Part shown: positions 2,690 to 37,056 of the stretch, piece by piece
Numbering within the stretch: the stretch's first letter is position 1
Layout: each line of letters begins with the position of its first letter
UHGV virus genome: UHGV-1359486
DNA from: a virus
DNA length: 37,770 nt
Reading direction: 5' to 3' (one strand)
The notes under the pieces: model-generated
Seen by the model: only the letters and a program-made list of their open reading frames with translations
Told to the model about the DNA's origin: nothing
Database searches by the model: none
Position numbers and translations under genes: made by a program

Positions 2690-4621
2690 TTAGATGCATA
2701 TAATTTCAATAAAAAACATCATTCCTGATGTTAATTCATTTGGTTTTACTTTATTACCACTTGTATCAATTAAGTTAAAGTAAACCTCTCCTGACCCAGC
2801 TGATGAGTTGTTGTAAAATGGAGCCAGTGAAATTCCGTTTGCGTTGTTGCAACTGGTACACATCACATATGGGCGTTGATACTTAGTGTATCCAGGCATA
2901 AATTTGACCTTAAAGGCGTATGGATCGCCAGGAACGCTTTCTGCAGAATAAACTCCTGACGCAATATAGAATGAATTATCTACAACGATACCTGACCCGC
3001 CCTGACTAACAAGGCACCCAATTCTCCTGTTTAGTGAGGCGACACTTCCCTCTGACTTGCGCCACTGGTATGAGTTATTTCTTGAAATGACTGGTGTCGC
3101 CATATTTACATATTTAAGTGGTATGTTTCCGCTAATATCATTATCGCCAGCATCAACCCCTTTTATTGTTATTATATTATCTTGCTTCTCAGGATATCCG
3201 GCATAGTCCCAACAGAAAAAATCAATTCTATTTTGCCCTGCACCATCAATAAATAGAGAGCTAACGGCATCACCTCCCCACTGCTGTACATAGTCACATT
3301 GAATTTCAGCTATTTGTGTGTTGTATGGATATGCATCCGTAGTTATAGGGACGCACTTGATGGTTATGCCATGCAAAGCCCCCTCAACCCTTATGTTTCT
3401 AAAAATACATGACGTTATCCATGATCCACCATCTGAACCCGCTGTGCCTTCCGCTGCAACATCCTCCTTTTTAGGCTGCACGGCGAGTACCTGTAATGCA
3501 TACTCACCAAACCCTAAAGTCAGGTCAGTGAACTTCCCCCAACAAATGCTATTCCATCTGCGGCGGTCGTCAACATACTGGCCTCCGTCCTTGCTTAAAT
3601 CAGCACGAAGCATGAGTGAAGTACCGGTCTTGTCTTTCGAGCAACCAACCAGGTTAAGGTTACTGATCGTTATGTTGCGGAGGTTATTTTTACCGATAAC
3701 CAATGCAACAGAATGATTCCATTCTGTTAGGTCACTATCGACGGCTATTCTCGCCTTATTACCATGCCCTTCTGTGCTGAATTCAATATTGTCATTTTCA
3801 AACACAAACCAATCGTTACGTAGTGAGCGGTTAATTAACTGAGCTCCGCCAGAAAAACGGAAGTTTTTCTTAACCTTGACCTGGCTGTTGCAATCAAATG
3901 ACATTTTAGGGATCAGGATGGTGTTTACTGCTGCAATTTCCTGAAGGCCACCCAGAATACTTCCGATATCAGTATTCTCCTGAGCGCCAACAGAAAGGAT
4001 ATCAGCGCCGTTTGTAACATCCAATGTTGCAGTCAGTCCGTTATCCAGGATGACGTTTACCAGCGTGTCTGGCTGATTATTTGTGATTGCATAAATGCCC
4101 TCACCACCATCACCAGGAGAGTAATATCCGCGAGTTTTGACCGTAGCCCCAAGTGGAAGTGATGTATCCGCTACCATTGCAGCGACATTATCGAAGACGC
4201 GGAGATAGTTTTCAGTCAGGCCACCTATCATTTTATATCCATCGTCCCCGCCTAACTCCCCCCTTATCCTTACATCAAATTGATCAGGGTCATACTTCAA
4301 AACATTAGGATAATAGAACTGCTGAGCTCCGTATGAATCATACACCGCCATAGAATGGCCTTGTATGGTAACGAACTTCGCAATCTGCCCGTTATATACC
4401 GGATAGCCAGCTTGGTTAATAATCAGAGGCTGAGTTGCGGGAATGTGCGTTCCATCTTCGTTTTCAAGATACACCTGAATTTGGTTTTCCGGTATGGTGG
4501 GATCGGTGTCAATTTTCCCGATGAAGATTTTCCCGTTACTCGCCGCCTGGAATTTGCGTGCAAGCGTGAACAACTGCGAAGGCATGCTCACTACAACATT
4601 AGGAATAATTTGTTCTGACAT
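2690..4621 (-). CDS. Tailspike protein (P22 gp9-type N-terminal head-binding domain + divergent beta-helix receptor-binding domain)
   Basis: N-terminus [13 protein letters not shown]...[12 protein letters not shown]...[10 protein letters not shown] matches P22-family tailspike head-binding domain; ATG at 4619-4621 with GGAG 6 nt upstream (track ORF starts at TTG 4633). Confidence 0.85.
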
Positions 4622-4689
4622 TGCTTTCTCCAAGCGTGAGTAGTCGCATCAGACTATGATGTGATTTTTTAATTTAATAGGAGTGTGAT

Positions 4690-28752: not shown

Positions 28753-29385
28753 ATGAGTCTTGCCAGCAGAGTAAAAAGTCGTCGCCTTGCGCTCGAAATG
28801 ACACAAACAGAGGCAGCAGAAAAAGCAGGAATTAAACAGCAGTCGTGGGCGTCTATTGAAGATGGTAAGACTGTTAAACCTCGTAATATAATTGCGATTG
28901 GCGCTGCATTGCAGTGCGACCCAGGGTGGCTGATGACGGGAGATAATATTCAGCCAATCAGCGAGGTAAATACACGGAAGATACCTCTAATTAGTTACGT
29001 ACAGGCGGGAAACTTGGCTGAAAGCATACCGATCAGTGATTGTGACGGGTCTTTTGAGTACGTTCTTACCGATCAGGACTTATCTCATAATGCGTTCGCC
29101 CTTCGTATTGAAGGTGATTCAATGGAGCCTGATTTTAAAACCGGCGATGTAGTGATTATCGATCCTGAGATAGAGCCGCATCCAGGTGAGTTTGTTGTCG
29201 CGTCTAATGGCGAGCAAGAGGCAACATTCAAGAAATACAGGCCTACCCATGTCATGATTAATGGTGACCAGCACTACGAGTTAGTCCCACTCAATGACGA
29301 CTATCCAGTGCTCGATAGCGAGAAAATCAATCTCCGGATAATCGGTACAATGGTAGAGCACCGAATTTACCGAAGAAAAAGGTAA
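28753..29385 (+). CDS. cI: CI-type repressor (HTH + S24 LexA-like autopeptidase domain)
   Basis: 210 aa; N-terminal HTH; GDSMEP (Ser) and FKKY (Lys) catalytic dyad context. Confidence 0.9.
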   Translation: MSLASRVKSRRLALEMTQTEAAEKAGIKQQSWASIEDGKTVKPRNIIAIGAALQCDPGWLMTGDNIQPISEVNTRKIPLISYVQAGNLAESIPISDCDGSFEYVLTDQDLSHNAFALRIEGDSMEPDFKTGDVVIIDPEIEPHPGEFVVASNGEQEATFKKYRPTHVMINGDQHYELVPLNDDYPVLDSEKINLRIIGTMVEHRIYRRKR

Positions 29386-29398
29386 CACGCATTTAAAC

Positions 29399-29422
29399 CA
29401 ACCCGCTTCGGCGGGTTTTTTT
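29399..29422 (+). terminator. Rho-independent terminator after cI
   Basis: CCCGC-TTCG-GCGGG followed by TTTTTTT. Confidence 0.65.
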
Positions 29423-29471: not shown

Positions 29472-29515
29472 ATACAGTTTTACCTGTTGACCAAATACAG
29501 TTTTACCTGTATCTT
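29472..29515 (+). promoter_or_regulatory. OL/PL: two operator sites (29472-29489, 29495-29512) overlapping -35 TTGACC and -10 TATCTT
   Basis: Same 18-bp operator family as OR (ATACAGTTTTACCTGT). Confidence 0.65.
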
Positions 29516-29600: not shown

Positions 29601-29842
29601 CCACTGAGTGGTTTTTGGGATTGGTGAATGCCGGGTGCTGACCGGCAAGTGTAAGACCTAATGGGTGGTAGATATCGCTGGCTGTAGTCGGTTGAGTAAG
29701 CGCGTTGCAAGCCAGCACCGACCCAATAAACGACATGCGAAACCTTCGCCCCGGTGAAACTCCGGTGTCAACTAGCATGGCGCATAGACAAGCAGGAAAT
29801 CAGCACCTGCCACCAATCACCAAAAATTACTCAGGAGGCAAT

Positions 29843-30142
29843 ATGGCAACAATTACTGTTATTCCAAAGAAAGACAACGCGAAGAGCCGCCGGCTAGCAA
29901 AGCAAATGGCGTTCTGGGACAGAAAGCGTGAGGAGTATGCAGCGATGCCTAAAAGCCGCTCAGTGGAGGAGATTTTTGATTCAGTATTTGCGCCAGCGAA
30001 AGAAGAACGTCCGGCGCTGACACTGAAACCAACACAGTATTACCCGTCCGGTGATAACTGCTGCCTGCCTAAAGTGGCAATTTTCAGCGGGGTTAAGGTC
30101 AAGCAGCCGAAAGGTGATTTCGGGATTACAGTGCGAGCATAA
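29843..30142 (+). CDS. N-like antiterminator (99 aa)
   Basis: AGGAGG RBS; N-terminal Arg-rich motif KSRRLAKQMAFWDRKRE resembling lambda N ARM; first gene after PL/nutL. Confidence 0.6.
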   Translation: MATITVIPKKDNAKSRRLAKQMAFWDRKREEYAAMPKSRSVEEIFDSVFAPAKEERPALTLKPTQYYPSGDNCCLPKVAIFSGVKVKQPKGDFGITVRA

Positions 30143-30738: not shown

Positions 30739-30948
30739 ATGACAGATAAAACAGGTGGAGCCGCGTTTCCGGCAAGTGGTCACCCAGGGAAACAGCACTT
30801 ATCGCAGGAAGGAATGACGCTGCGGGATTATTTCGCAGCAAAGGCTATGGCATCAGTCCCGTTAGCTTTAGATAGTAATGAGCAACAATTAATAGCCAAT
30901 GCTGCTTATGCACAGGCAGACGCAATGCTCAGAGCAATGGAGAAATAA
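30739..30948 (+). CDS. Hypothetical protein (69 aa)
   Basis: GGAGGGA RBS. Confidence 0.5.
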   Translation: MTDKTGGAAFPASGHPGKQHLSQEGMTLRDYFAAKAMASVPLALDSNEQQLIANAAYAQADAMLRAMEK

Positions 30949-30950
30949 CA

Positions 30951-31337
30951 ATGTCAGGACACCCACACGCTGACCTTATGGCTAAGGCAGCAGAGATAGC
31001 GAAGACGGATCAGTATTGGCAGCGGCACTTTGAGGAAAAATTTCACAGTACGGATAAGTGGAATCCAATGTCAGATGTGTTCTTTCAAACACACAGAGAA
31101 TATCGGCTAAAGCCCAGCTTCATAGACATTAACGGGCATCAGGTTCCGGAGCCGGTGCGGGAGCCTCTGGAAGACGACCAAGAGTACTGGATAGCGGACA
31201 TTCGATATGCGGTATCTGTTTTTAATTGGGAGAATAATGACGCTGACAATCGCTGGCTTGAACGCGGCATCATTCATCTAACCAAAGAAGCCGCAGAAGC
31301 CCACTCAGCCGCCCTGCTCTCTTTCACACAGAAGTAA
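30951..31337 (+). CDS. Hypothetical protein (128 aa)
   Basis: GGAGAA RBS. Confidence 0.5.
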   Translation: MSGHPHADLMAKAAEIAKTDQYWQRHFEEKFHSTDKWNPMSDVFFQTHREYRLKPSFIDINGHQVPEPVREPLEDDQEYWIADIRYAVSVFNWENNDADNRWLERGIIHLTKEAAEAHSAALLSFTQK

Positions 31338-31377
31338 CCCACCCTATCCAACCTCGGGATATCAGCAGGTAAACAAC

Positions 31378-31509
31378 ATGAACATGCTTAAACAGCAGGA
31401 GCATCGCTACAAGCTTTGTAGTGAGAGTTTCGCACGTAAAAAATCAGGCTTAAAGCCGGTGTTAATTACATTTCTGGCGCTGACAGTTGTTCTGTTGTTC
31501 GCCAGATGA
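31378..31509 (+). CDS. Small C-terminally anchored membrane peptide (43 aa)
   Basis: Hand-translated MNMLKQQEHRYKLCSESFARKKSGLKPVLITFLALTVVLLFAR; below track cut-off. Confidence 0.35.
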   Translation: MNMLKQQEHRYKLCSESFARKKSGLKPVLITFLALTVVLLFAR

Positions 31510-31518
31510 GGGGGATTT

Positions 31519-31764
31519 ATGCAGATAACTTGCGACCACTTCAGCGTTTCCGGAAGAACCGGTGAGCCGGTAATCACTACCCACGGACGGGTATTTATCA
31601 ACGGACTTGATTCTGAGGCTATAAGAAATAGCGATGCCGATATACAGGAGTTAGTCGGCAACTGGCTGCGGAGTATGGATGAGCAATCAGCGGTTGAGAC
31701 GCTACGGAAAGCAGGGTTCGACATGGACGTTATCGCACAACTTGCAAGGAGGAGCGCAGCATGA
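31519..31764 (+). CDS. Hypothetical protein (81 aa)
   Basis: GAGGGGG RBS; ATGA-coupled to next gene. Confidence 0.5.
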   Translation: MQITCDHFSVSGRTGEPVITTHGRVFINGLDSEAIRNSDADIQELVGNWLRSMDEQSAVETLRKAGFDMDVIAQLARRSAA

Positions 31765-31991
31765 ACGCATACGCAGCACAGGATGCTCAGGAAGAGCGAC
31801 GGCTGGAGCATGCAGCATGGCAGGATGCCGTGGACATGGAAGTTAGCGAACTGGCAACGGATGCTTTTAATAAACTCCCTCAGCGCCTTCTGGATGAAGT
31901 AAGCGAGGACCTGCAAGAGGCGATATGGAAATCACTTTTTGACGTTATTGGCAATATCAGGAGTTCGTATGCAGCCAGGTATCTACGATGA
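31761..31991 (+). CDS. Acidic helical protein (76 aa) immediately upstream of the recombination nuclease
   Basis: AGGAGG RBS; acidic composition. Confidence 0.5.
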   Translation: MNAYAAQDAQEERRLEHAAWQDAVDMEVSELATDAFNKLPQRLLDEVSEDLQEAIWKSLFDVIGNIRSSYAARYLR

Positions 31992-32787
31992 CATCAGCAA
32001 TGATGACTATCACAACGGCCCCGGGATAAGTAAATCGCAGCTGGACCTTATCGAACAATCACCGGCTGACTTTATCTGGCAACGGAATGCCCCGGTGGAT
32101 GAGGAAAAAATAAAGGCTCTGGATTTCGGGACCGCTGTTCACTGCCTTTTGCTTGAGCCTGATGAGTTCAATAACCGGTACAGGATAGGGCCGGAAGTAA
32201 ACAGACGCACATCCGCAGGGAAGCAGGAAGAAAAGGAATTCTTCGAAATGTGCGAAAAAGAAGGAATCACGCCAATCACCCATGACGACAACAGGAAGTT
32301 GATGATCATGCGGGATAGTGCCATGGCCCACCCTATCGCCAAATGGTGCCTTGAAGCTGAAGGAAAAGCCGAGAGCAGCATTTACTGGAATGACAAGGAA
32401 ACGGACATTCTTTGCCGGTGCAGGCCGGACAAACTGATAGGACAACACGGATGGATTGTCGATGTGAAAAGCACCGCGGACATGTCCCGCTTCGAACGCG
32501 CTTTTTACGATATGCGCTATCACGTTCAGGACGCGTTTTACTCAGACGGATATAAGGACCTGTCCGGAGAGTTACCGGTGTTCGTATTTCTCGCGGTCAG
32601 CACAACAATCGACTGCGGAAGATATCCGGTCCGTGTATTCATTATGGATGATGTGGCAAAGGATGCCGGACGGTCCGCATACAAACAAAATCTCAGAACA
32701 TACACCGAGTGCATTAAAACGGATGAATGGCCCGGTCTGAGAACACTATCACTGCCACGCTACGCAAAGGAACTGAGAAATGAGTAA
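31969..32787 (+). CDS. RecE-type exonuclease (nuclease domain only; PD-(D/E)XK)
   Basis: GIYDDISNDDYHNGPGISKSQL, SSIYWND, CRCRPDKL, GWIVDVKSTAD, YHVQDAFYSDGY match the C-terminal nuclease domain of E. coli RecE as recalled. Confidence 0.8.
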   Translation: MQPGIYDDISNDDYHNGPGISKSQLDLIEQSPADFIWQRNAPVDEEKIKALDFGTAVHCLLLEPDEFNNRYRIGPEVNRRTSAGKQEEKEFFEMCEKEGITPITHDDNRKLMIMRDSAMAHPIAKWCLEAEGKAESSIYWNDKETDILCRCRPDKLIGQHGWIVDVKSTADMSRFERAFYDMRYHVQDAFYSDGYKDLSGELPVFVFLAVSTTIDCGRYPVRVFIMDDVAKDAGRSAYKQNLRTYTECIKTDEWPGLRTLSLPRYAKELRNE

Positions 32788-33589
32788 CCCACCAATCGCA
32801 CAGGCGGACCTGCAAAAAGCACAAGGGACCGCGGTTAAAGAAAAAACAAAAGACCAGCAGCTAATCCAGTTCATAAACCAGCCAGGCATGAAAGCTCAAC
32901 TAGCAGCCGCCCTGCCGAGGCATATAACACCGGACCGCATGATCAGGATTGTCACCACCGAGATACGGAAAACTCCATCACTGGCAACCTGTGACATGCA
33001 AAGCTTTATCGGCGCTGTTGTTCAGTGCTCGCAACTTGGCCTTGAGCCAGGTAACGCATTGGGCCACGCCTACCTCCTTCCGTTCGGCAATGGTAAAGCG
33101 GCATCAGGGCAATCAAATATTCAGTTAATTATCGGATATCGCGGCATGATCGACCTCGCCCGCCGATCCGGTCAAATTATCAGTATATCGGCCCGCACTG
33201 TGCGCGAAGGTGACAGTTTTCATTTTGAATATGGCTTAAACGAGGACCTTACACACGTACCCGGCGAAAATGACTCGGGCCCAATCACCCACGTTTATGC
33301 AGTGGCCCGCCTGAAAGAAGGTGGTGTTCAGTTTGAGGTTATGTCTTTCTCTCAGATTGAGAAGGTCCGCGATTCAAGCAAGGCCGGTAAAAATGGTCCA
33401 TGGGTATCTCACTGGGAAGAAATGGCGAAAAAGACCGTCATCCGCCGCCTGTTCAAATATCTGCCGGTATCTATCGAGATGCAGAGGGCCGTCATTCTGG
33501 ATGAAAAAGCAGAGGCCAACGTGGACCAGGAGCATGCATCTATTTTTGAAGGTGAGTACGAAACTGTATCGCCGGAATCCGCGGGGTAA
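32780..33589 (+). CDS. recT: RecT-family single-strand annealing protein
   Basis: 269 aa; LLPFG, IGYRGMIDLARRSG motifs; coupled downstream of the nuclease. Confidence 0.85.
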   Translation: MSNPPIAQADLQKAQGTAVKEKTKDQQLIQFINQPGMKAQLAAALPRHITPDRMIRIVTTEIRKTPSLATCDMQSFIGAVVQCSQLGLEPGNALGHAYLLPFGNGKAASGQSNIQLIIGYRGMIDLARRSGQIISISARTVREGDSFHFEYGLNEDLTHVPGENDSGPITHVYAVARLKEGGVQFEVMSFSQIEKVRDSSKAGKNGPWVSHWEEMAKKTVIRRLFKYLPVSIEMQRAVILDEKAEANVDQEHASIFEGEYETVSPESAG

Positions 33590-34171: not shown

Positions 34172-34963
34172 ATGACTGCTTACTATAACGAAATCGACCC
34201 GTTCGCTGCTCAGTGGTTACGGAATCTCATTGCTGCCGGCCATATAGCGCCGGGTGTAGTGGACGAAAGGAGTATTGAAGATGTCACACCAGATGATTTA
34301 CGCGGATTCACACAATGCCACTTCTTCGCCGGTATCGGGGTGTGGTCACTCGCACTGCGCCGTGCAGGATGGCCGGATGATAAACAAGTCTGGTCAGGAA
34401 GTTGTCCGTGCCAGCCTTTCAGCGCGGCAGGCAAAGGAAATGGGTTTGCTGACGAGCGGCACCTTTGGCCTGCATTCTTCCACCTCATCAGCGAGTGCAA
34501 ACCTGGCGTTATCTTTGGTGAACAGGTTGCAAGCAAAGACGGCCTCGGGTGGCTCGACCTTGTTCAAACTGACTTGGAAGCAACGAACTACGCCGTCGCC
34601 GCGGTCGATTTATGCGCTGCGGGCTTCGGTGCGCCGCATATCAGACAGCGATTGTTCTGGGTGGGCAACGCCAACAACCAGGGAATGGAAGGAATGCGGG
34701 GATGTGAGTCAGTCATTCTTCCGGAAGGACGGGAAGATGCGAAACGACACGCTATACCGCCAGCTATGGCTGCACATGTTTGGGATGGATGGCAGGCCGT
34801 CACGGGAGCAGATAAAAAATCTCGAATGCTGCCACCTGACTTTGGCGAGAGAACTGATGATGCTGCCGGTAGAGTTGGAAAACTCCGCGCCTACGGAAAT
34901 GCCATCGTCGCGCCGGTCGCGGAAGAATTTATAAGGGCTTATATGCTGATAACAGAGGAATGA
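34172..34963 (+). CDS. DNA (cytosine-5)-methyltransferase-like protein, orphan, short target-recognition region
   Basis: 263 aa; motif I FFAGIGV, motif IV SCPCQPFSAAGK, ENV-like FGEQV, QRL, motif X YGNAIV; no adjacent nuclease gene. Confidence 0.6.
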   Translation: MTAYYNEIDPFAAQWLRNLIAAGHIAPGVVDERSIEDVTPDDLRGFTQCHFFAGIGVWSLALRRAGWPDDKQVWSGSCPCQPFSAAGKGNGFADERHLWPAFFHLISECKPGVIFGEQVASKDGLGWLDLVQTDLEATNYAVAAVDLCAAGFGAPHIRQRLFWVGNANNQGMEGMRGCESVILPEGREDAKRHAIPPAMAAHVWDGWQAVTGADKKSRMLPPDFGERTDDAAGRVGKLRAYGNAIVAPVAEEFIRAYMLITEE

Positions 34964-36139: not shown

Positions 36140-36306
36140 AATCATCGGGGAATAACAATGACAATCGGATTTGTATTACTACTGGTAATGCACGGTGCTG
36201 CTGTGCCTGTTACCGATGATATTTATACGCTCGAGGAATGTGAGAGCCGCGCAGTGCAGGTAATGGCTGTGCGGAATGTTGAATTAGTGTGTGCGGAGGT
36301 TTTCAG

Positions 36307-36675
36307 ATGAGACAAATTAAAATAAGCTCTGGCGCGTGGCAAAAAGATTTAGAAATGGTTGTCACTGTTATCGATGAAGATAAATTTAAAACTCAGTGTG
36401 AGCAAGTTAATAAATTTTATTGTGACGCAGAGTATAGAGCTAAGAAACACGGAAGCCATGAAAAAGCGGGGTTCGCCATGTTCTGCGCTGAGTGTTTTCA
36501 ACAAATGGCATTCAATAACTTTAAAGACGAAGAATGGCTGACTGAGCAATTCGACTGGTCTAAAGATAAAGGAATTGAAGGGTATCCTTCGTTAGATGAT
36601 ATGGGCATTCGAATCGATGAAATTGAGCCATGGTTTATTGATTACGACGAAATGGAAATTACAGGATGGTGTTAA
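36307..36675 (+). CDS. Hypothetical protein (122 aa from ATG; track 36289)
   Basis: GGAGG RBS 8 nt upstream. Confidence 0.5.
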   Translation: MRQIKISSGAWQKDLEMVVTVIDEDKFKTQCEQVNKFYCDAEYRAKKHGSHEKAGFAMFCAECFQQMAFNNFKDEEWLTEQFDWSKDKGIEGYPSLDDMGIRIDEIEPWFIDYDEMEITGWC

Positions 36676-37056
36676 ATGAACAAATATAGTGACAAATCAG
36701 ACTTTGAGATTAATAAGGCTGTGGCTGTTAATATTAATGGCACTGACTCTGTTTTAGAAAAGTTCGGTAGAATATATATCAGTGATGGCGATAGAGGTGC
36801 GATGGTGAGCTTCTCCCCATGCAACAACCCAGCGGACGCATGGCCTATTATTTTAAAAAACAGAATCAGCATTATCATTCCAGGGAATGAATATAGTGAT
36901 GGTTACAGCACTCCATTTGCTGCAAGTGGATTTGATGATGTTTCTCATATAACCAGAAATACATATTATACAGATGAGGAATCATTCAATCAAAACCCAC
37001 TACGCGCAGCAATGGAAGTATTCCTGATGATGAAAGAGGCGGAGAATGGTAAATAG
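36676..37056 (+). CDS. Hypothetical protein (126 aa)
   Basis: ORF with ATG. Confidence 0.5.
   Translation: MNKYSDKSDFEINKAVAVNINGTDSVLEKFGRIYISDGDRGAMVSFSPCNNPADAWPIILKNRISIIIPGNEYSDGYSTPFAASGFDDVSHITRNTYYTDEESFNQNPLRAAMEVFLMMKEAENGK

What the first reader, a model, noticed from the sequence alone, without database searches (positions are those of the whole stretch)
31761..33589. RecE-nuclease-domain/RecT recombination module with an upstream acidic 76-aa candidate nuclease inhibitor
The nuclease is only the roughly 270-aa PD-(D/E)XK domain of RecE, coupled to RecT. The acidic, probably helical 76-aa protein just upstream occupies the slot that Gam holds in lambda, so an anti-RecBCD DNA-mimic role is possible but speculative.
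Basis: partly seen in the sequence, partly recalled or inferred. Interest (0 to 1): 0.45.

Follow-up and report, generated by a model that had tools for sequence, protein, structure and literature searches.

The report
Short Gam-like inhibitor with RecE/RecT
A Morganella prophage carries an ordinary RecE-nuclease/RecT recombination pair, and the 76-residue protein in front of it is a short, so far unannotated relative of the phage lambda Gam and phi80 GamL inhibitors of the host RecBCD nuclease.

Summary
Three translationally coupled + strand genes fill 31761-33589. They are a 76-aa acidic all-helical protein, a 272-aa RecE nuclease domain (true start ATG 31969) and a 269-aa RecT.

The window is a P22-like/lambdoid Morganella morganii prophage. 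The genes lie in its early-left operon, downstream of a CI-like repressor and a weak N-like gene.

The 76-aa protein is more than a tenant of the Gam slot. Its first ~48 residues are remotely but reproducibly homologous to the N-terminal helix of lambda Gam (hhalign 86%, E 5e-6) and of phi80-type GamL (93.5%, E 2e-7). Column-shuffle controls never approach these scores. In the solved lambda Gam complex this helix sits in the ssDNA site of RecB.

The C-terminal third is unrelated to either family and shorter. Pfam, NCBIfam and PGAP do not recognise the protein.

Its relatives (Morganella and a few other contigs, plus one isolated Proteus phage) all sit directly upstream of a recombination module. 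Three module types occur: RecE/RecT, RecT/YqaJ and Sak/YqaJ/SSB. That points to a host target rather than a recombinase partner.

Best reading: a third, shorter sequence type of Gam/GamL-like RecBCD inhibitor. Inhibition itself is untested. This is a new variant of a known kind, of moderate interest.

The parts
31761..31991 (+). orf76: short Gam/GamL-like protein (76 aa, pI 4.46), candidate RecBCD inhibitor
   Evidence: - Strong SD and ATGA coupling to the upstream gene.
- Conserved family.
- hhalign against lambda Gam 86%, E 5e-6, and against GamL 93.5%, E 2e-7, over residues 1-48.
- phrog_259 E 0.0049; PF06064 E 0.04, below the cut-off.
- AF2 all-helical.
31761..31835 (+). Codons 1-24 (MNAYAAQDAQEERRLEHAAWQDAV): nearly invariant core of the family
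   Evidence: - Nearly invariant in protein alignment A1.
- About 96-97% DNA identity among Morganella variants whose flanks are unrelated. More distant taxa keep the residues through synonymous changes (A4).
- Aligns gaplessly with the start of the lambda Gam N-terminal helix. M1, N2, A3, Y4, D8 and E11 are shared by all three families.
31969..32787 (+). RecE-type 5'-3' dsDNA exonuclease, nuclease domain only (272 aa; the mechanical ORF starts at TTG 31939)
   Evidence: - PDB 3H4R E 1.5e-106.
- 59% identity to Rac RecE 595-866.
- PF12684 at 4.8e-27 and phrog_412 'exonuclease VIII' at 3e-108.
- The stretches GTAVHC and RPDK...VDVK align with identical residues in RecE.
- AGGAG lies 5 nt before ATG 31969.
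32780..33589 (+). RecT single-strand annealing protein (269 aa)
   Evidence: - PF03837 at 1.8e-54 and phrog_148 at 6e-99.
- 69% identity to E. coli Rac RecT.
- 8-nt overlap with the recE stop.
28753..29385 (+). CI-like repressor (HTH_3 + Peptidase_S24); context that defines the early-left operon
   Evidence: - Pfam hits.
- Followed by a terminator-like site at 29400-29417 and a promoter-like site at 29487-29515. These are consensus matches only.
29840..30142 (+). Possible N-type antiterminator (weak); context only
   Evidence: PF25694 N_peptide at E 4.4e-4, 21.2 bits against a cut-off of 27.9.

Best explanation
The locus is the Rec module of a P22-like/lambdoid Morganella prophage. It is transcribed from the early-left promoter and has three coupled genes.

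**The recombinase pair.** RecE (nuclease domain only) resects dsDNA ends 5'-3'. RecT anneals the exposed 3' strand. This is the known Rac RecET mechanism.

**orf76.** It is a short member of the lambda Gam / phi80 GamL superfamily. Its conserved 37-residue N-terminal helix ends at the same Leu-Pro as in Gam. The inferred mechanism is that this helix enters the DNA-binding channel of the host RecBCD and sterically blocks it. That would protect linear and rolling-circle phage DNA and recombination intermediates.

**The C-terminal part.** The helix at residues 49-74 is variable and not homologous to Gam. It is inferred to be a scaffold or oligomerisation element that replaces the Gam C-terminal half.

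**Shown:** gene structure, RecE/RecT identity, N-terminal homology to Gam and GamL, and the conserved position upstream of different recombinase modules.

**Inferred:** RecBCD binding, oligomeric state and the channel-plug mechanism.
For: **Library-wide scans put Gam-like families first.**
- phrog_259 at E 0.0049 for the window protein.
- phrog_1050 is hit by 9 of 17 relatives, best 2.3e-5.
- The lambda Gam structures 5MBV and 2UUZ are the top PDB hits.
- NF033500 phi80_GamL is hit by 3 of 17 relatives, best 1.7e-4.

**Profile-profile comparison.**
- Family against lambda Gam: 86%, E 5.2e-6.
- Family against GamL: 93.5%, E 2.2e-7.
- Both alignments are gapless over columns 1-48.
- Gam against GamL gives 95%, so the three families form one superfamily.
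- M1, N2, A3, Y4, D8, E11, A32, L39 and P40 are shared by all three consensus sequences.

**Controls.**
- 300 column shuffles of the Gam alignment reach at most 22.4 against the real 35.2.
- 200 shuffles of the trimmed family alignment reach at most 17.9.
- RacC, P22 Arf, Abc1 and Abc2 give E 0.1-0.8.

**Genomic association.** Every relative examined lies directly upstream of a recombination module, with start/stop overlap.
- RecE domain + RecT: window, L003/L004, L008 and Proteus phage L014.
- RecT + YqaJ: L001/L002 and L007.
- Sak + YqaJ + SSB: L005/L006.
- C-terminal variants do not track the module type.

**Published mechanism and function.**
- In the RecBCD-GamS cryo-EM structure the N-terminal Gam helix sits in the RecB ssDNA site and acts as a steric block (PMC5218532).
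- GamL is reported to block RecBCD (PMC12315714, citing Rotman 2012).

**No other candidate.** No other recognisable anti-RecBCD gene (Abc2, MuGam) was found in the ORFs of the operon that were scanned.
Against: - The window protein scores below every curated threshold. PF06064 gives 14.6 bits against 25, there is no NF033500 hit, and no precomputed Pfam hit exists for any relative.
- Homology stops at about residue 50. The C-terminal half of Gam, which completes the dimeric body that lies on the duplex-DNA site of RecBCD, has no counterpart. The protein is 22 residues shorter than GamS.
- A linker-joined dimer prediction was of low confidence: pLDDT 60.
- The Chi count (0 found, 1.06 expected) is uninformative.
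- There are no functional data.
Confidence: 0.68

Rival explanations
1. orf76 is an accessory recombination factor, in the manner of P22 Arf or Abc1. It would act on or with the phage recombinase, for example by loading or stimulating it, and would not inhibit RecBCD.
For: - It is translationally coupled to recE, with a 23-nt overlap.
- It always lies immediately upstream of the recombinase genes.
- P22 has small accessory genes in the same module, of unknown mechanism (PMC12315714).
Against: - There is no similarity to Arf, Abc1 or Abc2.
- The same conserved N-terminus accompanies three unrelated annealase/nuclease combinations (RecE/RecT, RecT/YqaJ, Sak/YqaJ/SSB). That is hard to reconcile with a partner-specific role.
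- The only detectable homology is to Gam and GamL.
Confidence: 0.12
2. orf76 descends from Gam/GamL but has been retargeted. With a different C-terminal body it would inhibit another host nuclease or defence system (for example SbcCD or a DNA-end-sensing defence system), or act as a decoy, rather than block RecBCD.
For: - The C-terminal half is replaced and highly variable between prophages, with three or more types on one invariant N-terminus. This pattern is compatible with an arms race.
- From my own knowledge, not tested here: lambda Gam is reported to affect targets other than RecBCD, such as SbcCD.
Against: - The most conserved part is the segment homologous to the RecB-channel helix of Gam.
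- The genomic slot and module association are those of Gam and GamL.
- No evidence points to any other target.
Confidence: 0.12
3. The similarity to Gam is convergent. It would amount to an MNAY start plus an acidic amphipathic helix, and orf76 would be an unrelated small early protein of unknown role.
For: - All single-sequence scores are sub-threshold.
- Fold searches do not retrieve Gam.
- Short helical acidic proteins give inflated similarity scores.
Against: - Composition-preserving shuffles never approach the real score.
- The alignments are gapless, in one register, against two independent families.
- A Leu-Pro helix end is conserved at positions 39-40.
- Relatives reach library-corrected E 2.3e-5 against phrog_1050.
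- The genomic position is identical.
Confidence: 0.08

Closest known systems
Bacteriophage lambda Gam (GamS, PF06064; PDB 2UUZ, 5MBV)
   Same: - It is the first gene of the Rec module in the early-left operon.
- It is small, acidic and helical.
- Residues 1-48 align without gaps (17 of 47 identical by my count from the alignments).
- The long N-terminal helix ends at the same Leu39-Pro40.
- M1, N2, A3, Y4, D8 and E11 are conserved.
   Different: - orf76 is 76 aa against 98 aa.
- There is no homology after about residue 50, so the C-terminal part of the Gam dimer body is missing or replaced.
- It scores below the Pfam threshold.
- It is paired with RecE/RecT in nuclease-annealase order, not with Bet/Exo.
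phi80/Lula-type GamL (NF033500, PF28165, phrog_1050). This is not the long isoform of lambda Gam, which is also written GamL.
   Same: - This is the best profile-profile match: 93.5%, E 2.2e-7 over residues 1-48.
- It occupies the same slot upstream of the recombinase genes, for example in the Klebsiella phages L009 and L010.
- It begins MNAY..D..EER.
   Different: - GamL is 94 aa and has a conserved C-terminus, AYAQAEYDWDHRTGCPF, which is absent here.
- The window protein itself gets no NF033500 hit.
- The GamL examples seen here accompany Bet/Exo.
E. coli Rac prophage RecE/RecT
   Same: - RecT is 69% identical and the same length.
- The nuclease is 59% identical to RecE 595-866, and the aligned active-site stretches are conserved.
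- The gene order is recE-recT, with overlapping stop and start.
   Different: - The roughly 594 N-terminal residues of Rac RecE are absent.
- The gene upstream in Rac is racC, which is unrelated to orf76.
P22 Abc2, Abc1 and Arf
   Same: They are small early-left proteins of a P22-like phage Rec module. Abc2 is an anti-RecBCD protein.
   Different: - There is no sequence similarity.
- Abc1 and Abc2 lie downstream of the annealase gene erf.
- Abc2 modifies RecBCD through RecC rather than blocking the DNA site (PMC12315714).

Membership tests
Lambda Gam (PF06064) | Score at or above the Pfam gathering threshold | tested here: not met
   14.6 bits against a cut-off of 25, E 0.04. Only 3 of 17 relatives hit at E<=1.
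Lambda Gam (PF06064) | Homology of the N-terminal helix, which sits in the RecB ssDNA site in the solved complex | tested here: met
   - hhalign 86%, E 5.2e-6, gapless over columns 1-48.
- Shuffle maxima of 22.4 and 17.9 against the real 35.2 and 34.2.
- BLASTP E 1e-5.
Lambda Gam (PF06064) | Homology of the C-terminal half (GamS residues ~50-98) | tested here: not met
   No alignment extends beyond column 48-54 in any comparison. The protein ends at residue 76.
Lambda Gam (PF06064) | Gam fold and homodimer | tested here: inconclusive
- The linker-joined dimer model reaches only pLDDT 60.
Lambda Gam (PF06064) | Binds and inhibits RecBCD | not testable with these tools
   Needs genetics or biochemistry.
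Lambda Gam (PF06064) | Promoter-proximal gene of the Rec module in the early-left operon | tested here: met
   The order is cI, a pL-like promoter, an N-like ORF and orf76, followed by recE and recT. All relatives checked show the same position.
phi80-type GamL (NF033500 / PF28165 / phrog_1050) | Match to the curated family models | tested here: inconclusive
   - Window protein: no NF033500 hit; phrog_1050 E 0.03.
- Relatives: 3 of 17 hit NF033500 (best 1.7e-4) and 9 of 17 hit phrog_1050 (best 2.3e-5).
- PF28165 is missing from the local Pfam copy. Precomputed Pfam is '-' for all relatives.
phi80-type GamL (NF033500 / PF28165 / phrog_1050) | Profile-profile homology | tested here: met
   93.5%, E 2.2e-7, gapless over columns 1-48.
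phi80-type GamL (NF033500 / PF28165 / phrog_1050) | Conserved C-terminal motif AYAQAE.DW.HRTGCPF | tested here: not met
   The motif is invariant or nearly so in A6 and absent from orf76 and its relatives.
RecE / exonuclease VIII nuclease domain (PF12684, PD-(D/E)XK) | Homology to the solved RecE nuclease domain, with active-site stretches conserved | tested here: met
   - 3H4R at E 1.5e-106 over the whole domain.
- GTAVHC and RPDK...VDVK align with GTAFHC and RPDK...MDVK.
- Which residues are catalytic is from my own knowledge.
Full-length Rac-type RecE (866 aa) | Presence of the long N-terminal region | tested here: not met
   Only residues 595-866 have a counterpart. Homologues in related loci are also 270-272 aa.
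RecT (PF03837) | Family match and orthology to Rac RecT | tested here: met
   184.7 bits against a cut-off of 24. 69% identity over 260 residues.

The most novel reading that the evidence does not exclude
orf76 would represent a third, minimal sequence type of the Gam/GamL superfamily.

- It would consist of an invariant ~24-residue 'plug' for the RecB channel, carried on interchangeable, non-homologous C-terminal scaffolds.
- These would be shuffled among Morganellaceae prophages at a conserved 75-nt recombination joint.
- The N-terminal helix would then be the essential inhibitory determinant, and the duplex-mimicking body of Gam would be dispensable or replaceable.
- Some lambdoid Rec modules now scored as lacking an anti-RecBCD gene (43 of 246 in PMC12315714) would in fact carry unrecognised Gam relatives.
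- The family would also give sequence evidence that Gam and GamL, described as non-homologous sequence types, share ancestry.
Probability: 0.35. Interest if true: 0.55.

Novelty: new variant of a known kind. Interest (0 to 1): 0.4.

Why it matters
- **Annotation.** A family of 'hypothetical' proteins in Morganella prophages and one Proteus phage gets a testable function. The recognised set of RecBCD inhibitors in lambdoid phages is extended. The family also links lambda Gam and phi80 GamL through a shared N-terminal helix.
- **Mechanism.** A 76-residue natural protein keeps only the helix homologous to the channel-filling part of Gam. That would test how much of Gam is needed for inhibition.
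- **Practical use.** The three-gene cassette is a candidate native recombineering system for Morganellaceae, where lambda Red or Rac RecET may work poorly.
- **Limit.** The RecE/RecT pair itself is ordinary.

Tried and rejected
- **DNA searches.** Megablast of the locus against the phage and E. coli collections found no match. tblastn of orf76 against phages gave only chance hits.
- **Dimer model.** Two copies joined by a 30-residue Gly/Ser linker, with a paired alignment (A5), gave pLDDT 60 and pTM 0.48. This is too weak to interpret.
- **Chi avoidance.** This is the signature of inhibitor-encoding phages in PMC3784561. The window has 0 sites against 1.06 expected, which is uninformative. It also assumes that the E. 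coli Chi sequence applies to Morganella.
- **RacC.** It is the gene upstream of recE in Rac. It is unrelated to orf76.
- **P22 Arf, Abc1 and Abc2.** These are unrelated.
- **Shuffle artefact.** A first column-shuffle of the untrimmed family alignment produced one aberrant score of 132. It did not recur after mostly-gap columns were removed (maximum 17.9), so I treated it as an artefact of those columns without examining it further.
- **TTG 31939 as the RecE start.** Rejected in favour of ATG 31969, on the SD position and the length of homologues.
- **First hhalign alignment.** A1 against Gam gave an alignment with two compensating 5-residue gaps. The more diverse alignment A3 gave a gapless one, which I prefer.
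- **Not done.** The 169-aa opposite-strand ORF at 31407-31916 was not scanned against any family.
Full report
**What is there**

The interval 31761-33589 holds three + strand genes.
- orf76 is 31761-31991. AAGGAGG lies 8 nt upstream, and its ATG overlaps the stop of the upstream orf81 as ATGA.
- A RecE-type nuclease follows. The mechanical ORF begins at TTG 31939. ATG 31969 has an AGGAG 5 nt upstream. It gives 272 aa, the length of the called homologues elsewhere.
- RecT is 32780-33589 and overlaps the recE stop by 8 nt.
- orf76 and recE overlap by 23 nt, so the three genes look translationally coupled.

**Context**

The window is a P22-like/lambdoid prophage of Morganella morganii. The species comes from the names that sources give to near-identical proteins.
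- The - strand carries a tailspike with the P22 head-binding domain, a DnaB-type helicase and a lambda O-type replication protein.
- On the + strand a CI-like repressor (HTH plus S24 peptidase) lies at 28753-29385.
- It is followed by a terminator-like hairpin, a promoter-like site at 29487-29515 and a weak N-antiterminator match at 29840-30142.
- The three genes therefore sit in the early-left operon, where lambda has gam-bet-exo. orf76 is the promoter-proximal gene of the module, as gam is.

**The recombinase pair is ordinary**

- The nuclease is 59% identical to residues 595-866 of Rac RecE.
- It matches the crystallised nuclease domain 3H4R at E 1.5e-106, and the stretches around the active site align identically.
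- Nothing corresponds to the roughly 594 N-terminal residues of RecE.
- Domain-only RecE proteins of 270-272 aa are the rule in the related loci. They occur in 338 phage records, of which I inspected the Proteus phage (272 aa) and Enterobacter phage Tyrion (273 aa).
- RecT is 69% identical to Rac RecT.

**orf76 is a real gene and a small family**

- The word-index search found 38 clusters, nearly all from Morganella and all unnamed or 'hypothetical'.
- The exhaustive profile search of 1.84 billion representatives found only 14.
- The protein is acidic, with pI 4.46.
- AF2 predicts three helices, at 3-37, 41-46 and 49-74, with pLDDT 87.

**Homology to Gam and GamL**

Every library scan puts Gam-like families first, although each score is weak.

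| Search | Result |
|---|---|
| PF06064 (lambda Gam) | E 0.04, below threshold |
| phrog_259 'gam-like host nuclease inhibitor' | E 0.0049 |
| PDB profile search | lambda Gam 5MBV and 2UUZ are the top hits, E 0.14 |
| BLASTP against GamS | E 1e-5 |

It was confirmed by 97-99% identical proteins that are named Gam and carry PF06064.

I then built three alignments: the orf76 family including its most distant members (A3), lambda-type Gam (A2) and phi80-type GamL (A6). GamL surfaced because relatives of orf76 hit phrog_1050. Members of that family in Klebsiella phages are annotated GamL and sit upstream of bet-exo.

| hhalign comparison | Probability | E-value |
|---|---|---|
| orf76 family vs lambda Gam | 86% | 5.2e-6 |
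| orf76 family vs GamL | 93.5% | 2.2e-7 |
| lambda Gam vs GamL | 95% | 3.5e-8 |

- The two alignments that involve the orf76 family are gapless over residues 1-48 and use the same register.
- M1, N2, A3, Y4, D8, E11, A32, L39 and P40 are the consensus in all three families.
- The predicted helix of orf76 ends just before that Leu-Pro.
- Column shuffles that preserve composition reached at most 22.4 (300 shuffles of A2) and 17.9 (200 shuffles of trimmed A3). The real scores are 35.2 and 34.2.
- Four other small proteins from the same kind of operon slot gave E 0.1-0.8: RacC, P22 Arf, Abc1 and Abc2.

[quoted passage not shown] The last third has no counterpart in either.

**Why that helix matters**

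In the cryo-EM structure of RecBCD with GamS, the GamS dimer occupies the DNA-binding site. The N-terminal helix of one subunit fills the RecB channel that the 3' ssDNA tail normally occupies, and it acts mainly as a steric block (PMC5218532). GamL is reported to block RecBCD, and its fold is predicted to resemble that of Gam (PMC12315714). The conserved part of orf76 is therefore the part with a known inhibitory role.

**Genomic association**

I examined the neighbourhood of five further, divergent relatives and of one isolated phage. In every case the gene ends at or overlaps the start of a recombination module.

| Module downstream | Loci |
|---|---|
| RecE domain + RecT | window, L003/L004, L008; Proteus phage vB_BPM-V3 (also has SSB) |
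| RecT + YqaJ | L001/L002; L007 (also has SSB) |
| Sak + YqaJ + SSB | L005/L006 |

The C-terminal sequence type does not follow the module type. One type accompanies RecT/YqaJ in Morganella and RecE/RecT in the Proteus phage. Two different types both precede RecE/RecT. A protein that keeps one conserved N-terminus while its neighbours change annealase and nuclease families is more likely to act on a shared host target than on a specific phage partner.

**Conservation pattern**

- Within Morganella the first 24 residues are almost invariant, while the rest falls into at least three unrelated types.
- At the DNA level the first ~75 nt are about 96-97% identical between prophages whose upstream gene and downstream sequence do not align. 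This is a mosaic joint.
- More distant relatives keep the residues through synonymous changes, so the protein sequence is under selection.

**What does not fit or was not shown**

- The window protein fails every curated threshold for Gam and GamL.
- Fold searches did not recover Gam.
- A linked-dimer prediction was uninformative.
- The protein is 22 residues shorter than GamS and lacks the Gam C-terminal half. If it inhibits RecBCD, it must build the body outside the channel differently.
- The Chi count is uninformative.
- That Morganella has RecBCD is taken from general knowledge of Enterobacterales and was not checked here.

**Verdict**

orf76 is most likely a short, divergent Gam/GamL-type RecBCD inhibitor (confidence about 0.68) in front of a standard RecE-nuclease/RecT pair.
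- It is a new variant of a known kind. It is not recognised by Pfam, NCBIfam or PGAP.
- A recent survey lists four anti-RecBCD types in lambdoid phages, and its main text mentions neither Morganella nor Proteus phages (PMC12315714).
- Interest is moderate.

Noticed in passing
window 31761-31835; L003 3001-3075; L001 4001-4075: A 75-nt DNA island (codons 1-24 of the gam-like gene) is about 96-97% identical among Morganella prophages whose sequences on both sides are unrelated. It looks like a mosaic recombination joint inside a gene.
   Followed up: partly
L014 2750-3004 (Proteus phage vB_BPM-V3, PQ539422.1, XLZ13695.1): An isolated Proteus phage encodes an 84-aa 'hypothetical protein' that belongs to the orf76 family (hhalign 91.7%). 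It lies directly upstream of a RecE domain (79% identical to the window's), RecT and SSB. Its RecT is annotated as 'single-stranded DNA-binding protein'.
   Followed up: partly
alignments A2 and A6 (lambda Gam vs phi80-type GamL); P0137, P0140: - Gam and GamL are called non-homologous sequence types in PMC12315714.
- Here they align at 95% probability, E 3.5e-8.
- Some Salmonella Gam proteins carry both PF06064 and PF28165 in the precomputed Pfam column.
- The shared part is the N-terminal helix.
   Followed up: partly
L005 3246-3977 and L006, same position: A 243-aa Sak-type annealase gene (PF06378, E 8e-49) lies between the gam-like gene and yqaJ but is not called in the source annotation.
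   Followed up: yes
tool library (Pfam copy): The local Pfam copy lacks PF28165 (GamL). Klebsiella GamL gets no local hit, although the precomputed column lists PF28165.1. The absence of a GamL Pfam hit for orf76 therefore rests on the precomputed '-'.
   Followed up: no
window 34172-34963 (+): A short (263 aa) C-5 cytosine DNA methyltransferase lies downstream in the same operon. PF00145 matches only partially, but phrog_363 matches over nearly its full length. Related Morganella and Klebsiella loci also carry methylases just after the Rec module.
   Followed up: no
window 29840-30142 (+): There is a weak match to the N antitermination peptide family: PF25694, E 4.4e-4, below the cut-off. It is the first gene after the pL-like promoter. 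No nut sites were sought.
   Followed up: no
window 30739-31764 (+): Three small conserved early genes of unknown function lie just upstream of orf76. orf69 hits phrog_2201 and orf128 hits phrog_18768. orf81 has no family at all.
   Followed up: no
window 2693-4633 (-), 36289-37056 (+): P22-type features elsewhere in the window: a tailspike with the head-binding domain (PF09008), a NinX homologue and a DUF2528 protein. The early-left operon continues past 37 kb, and no integrase lies within the window.
   Followed up: no
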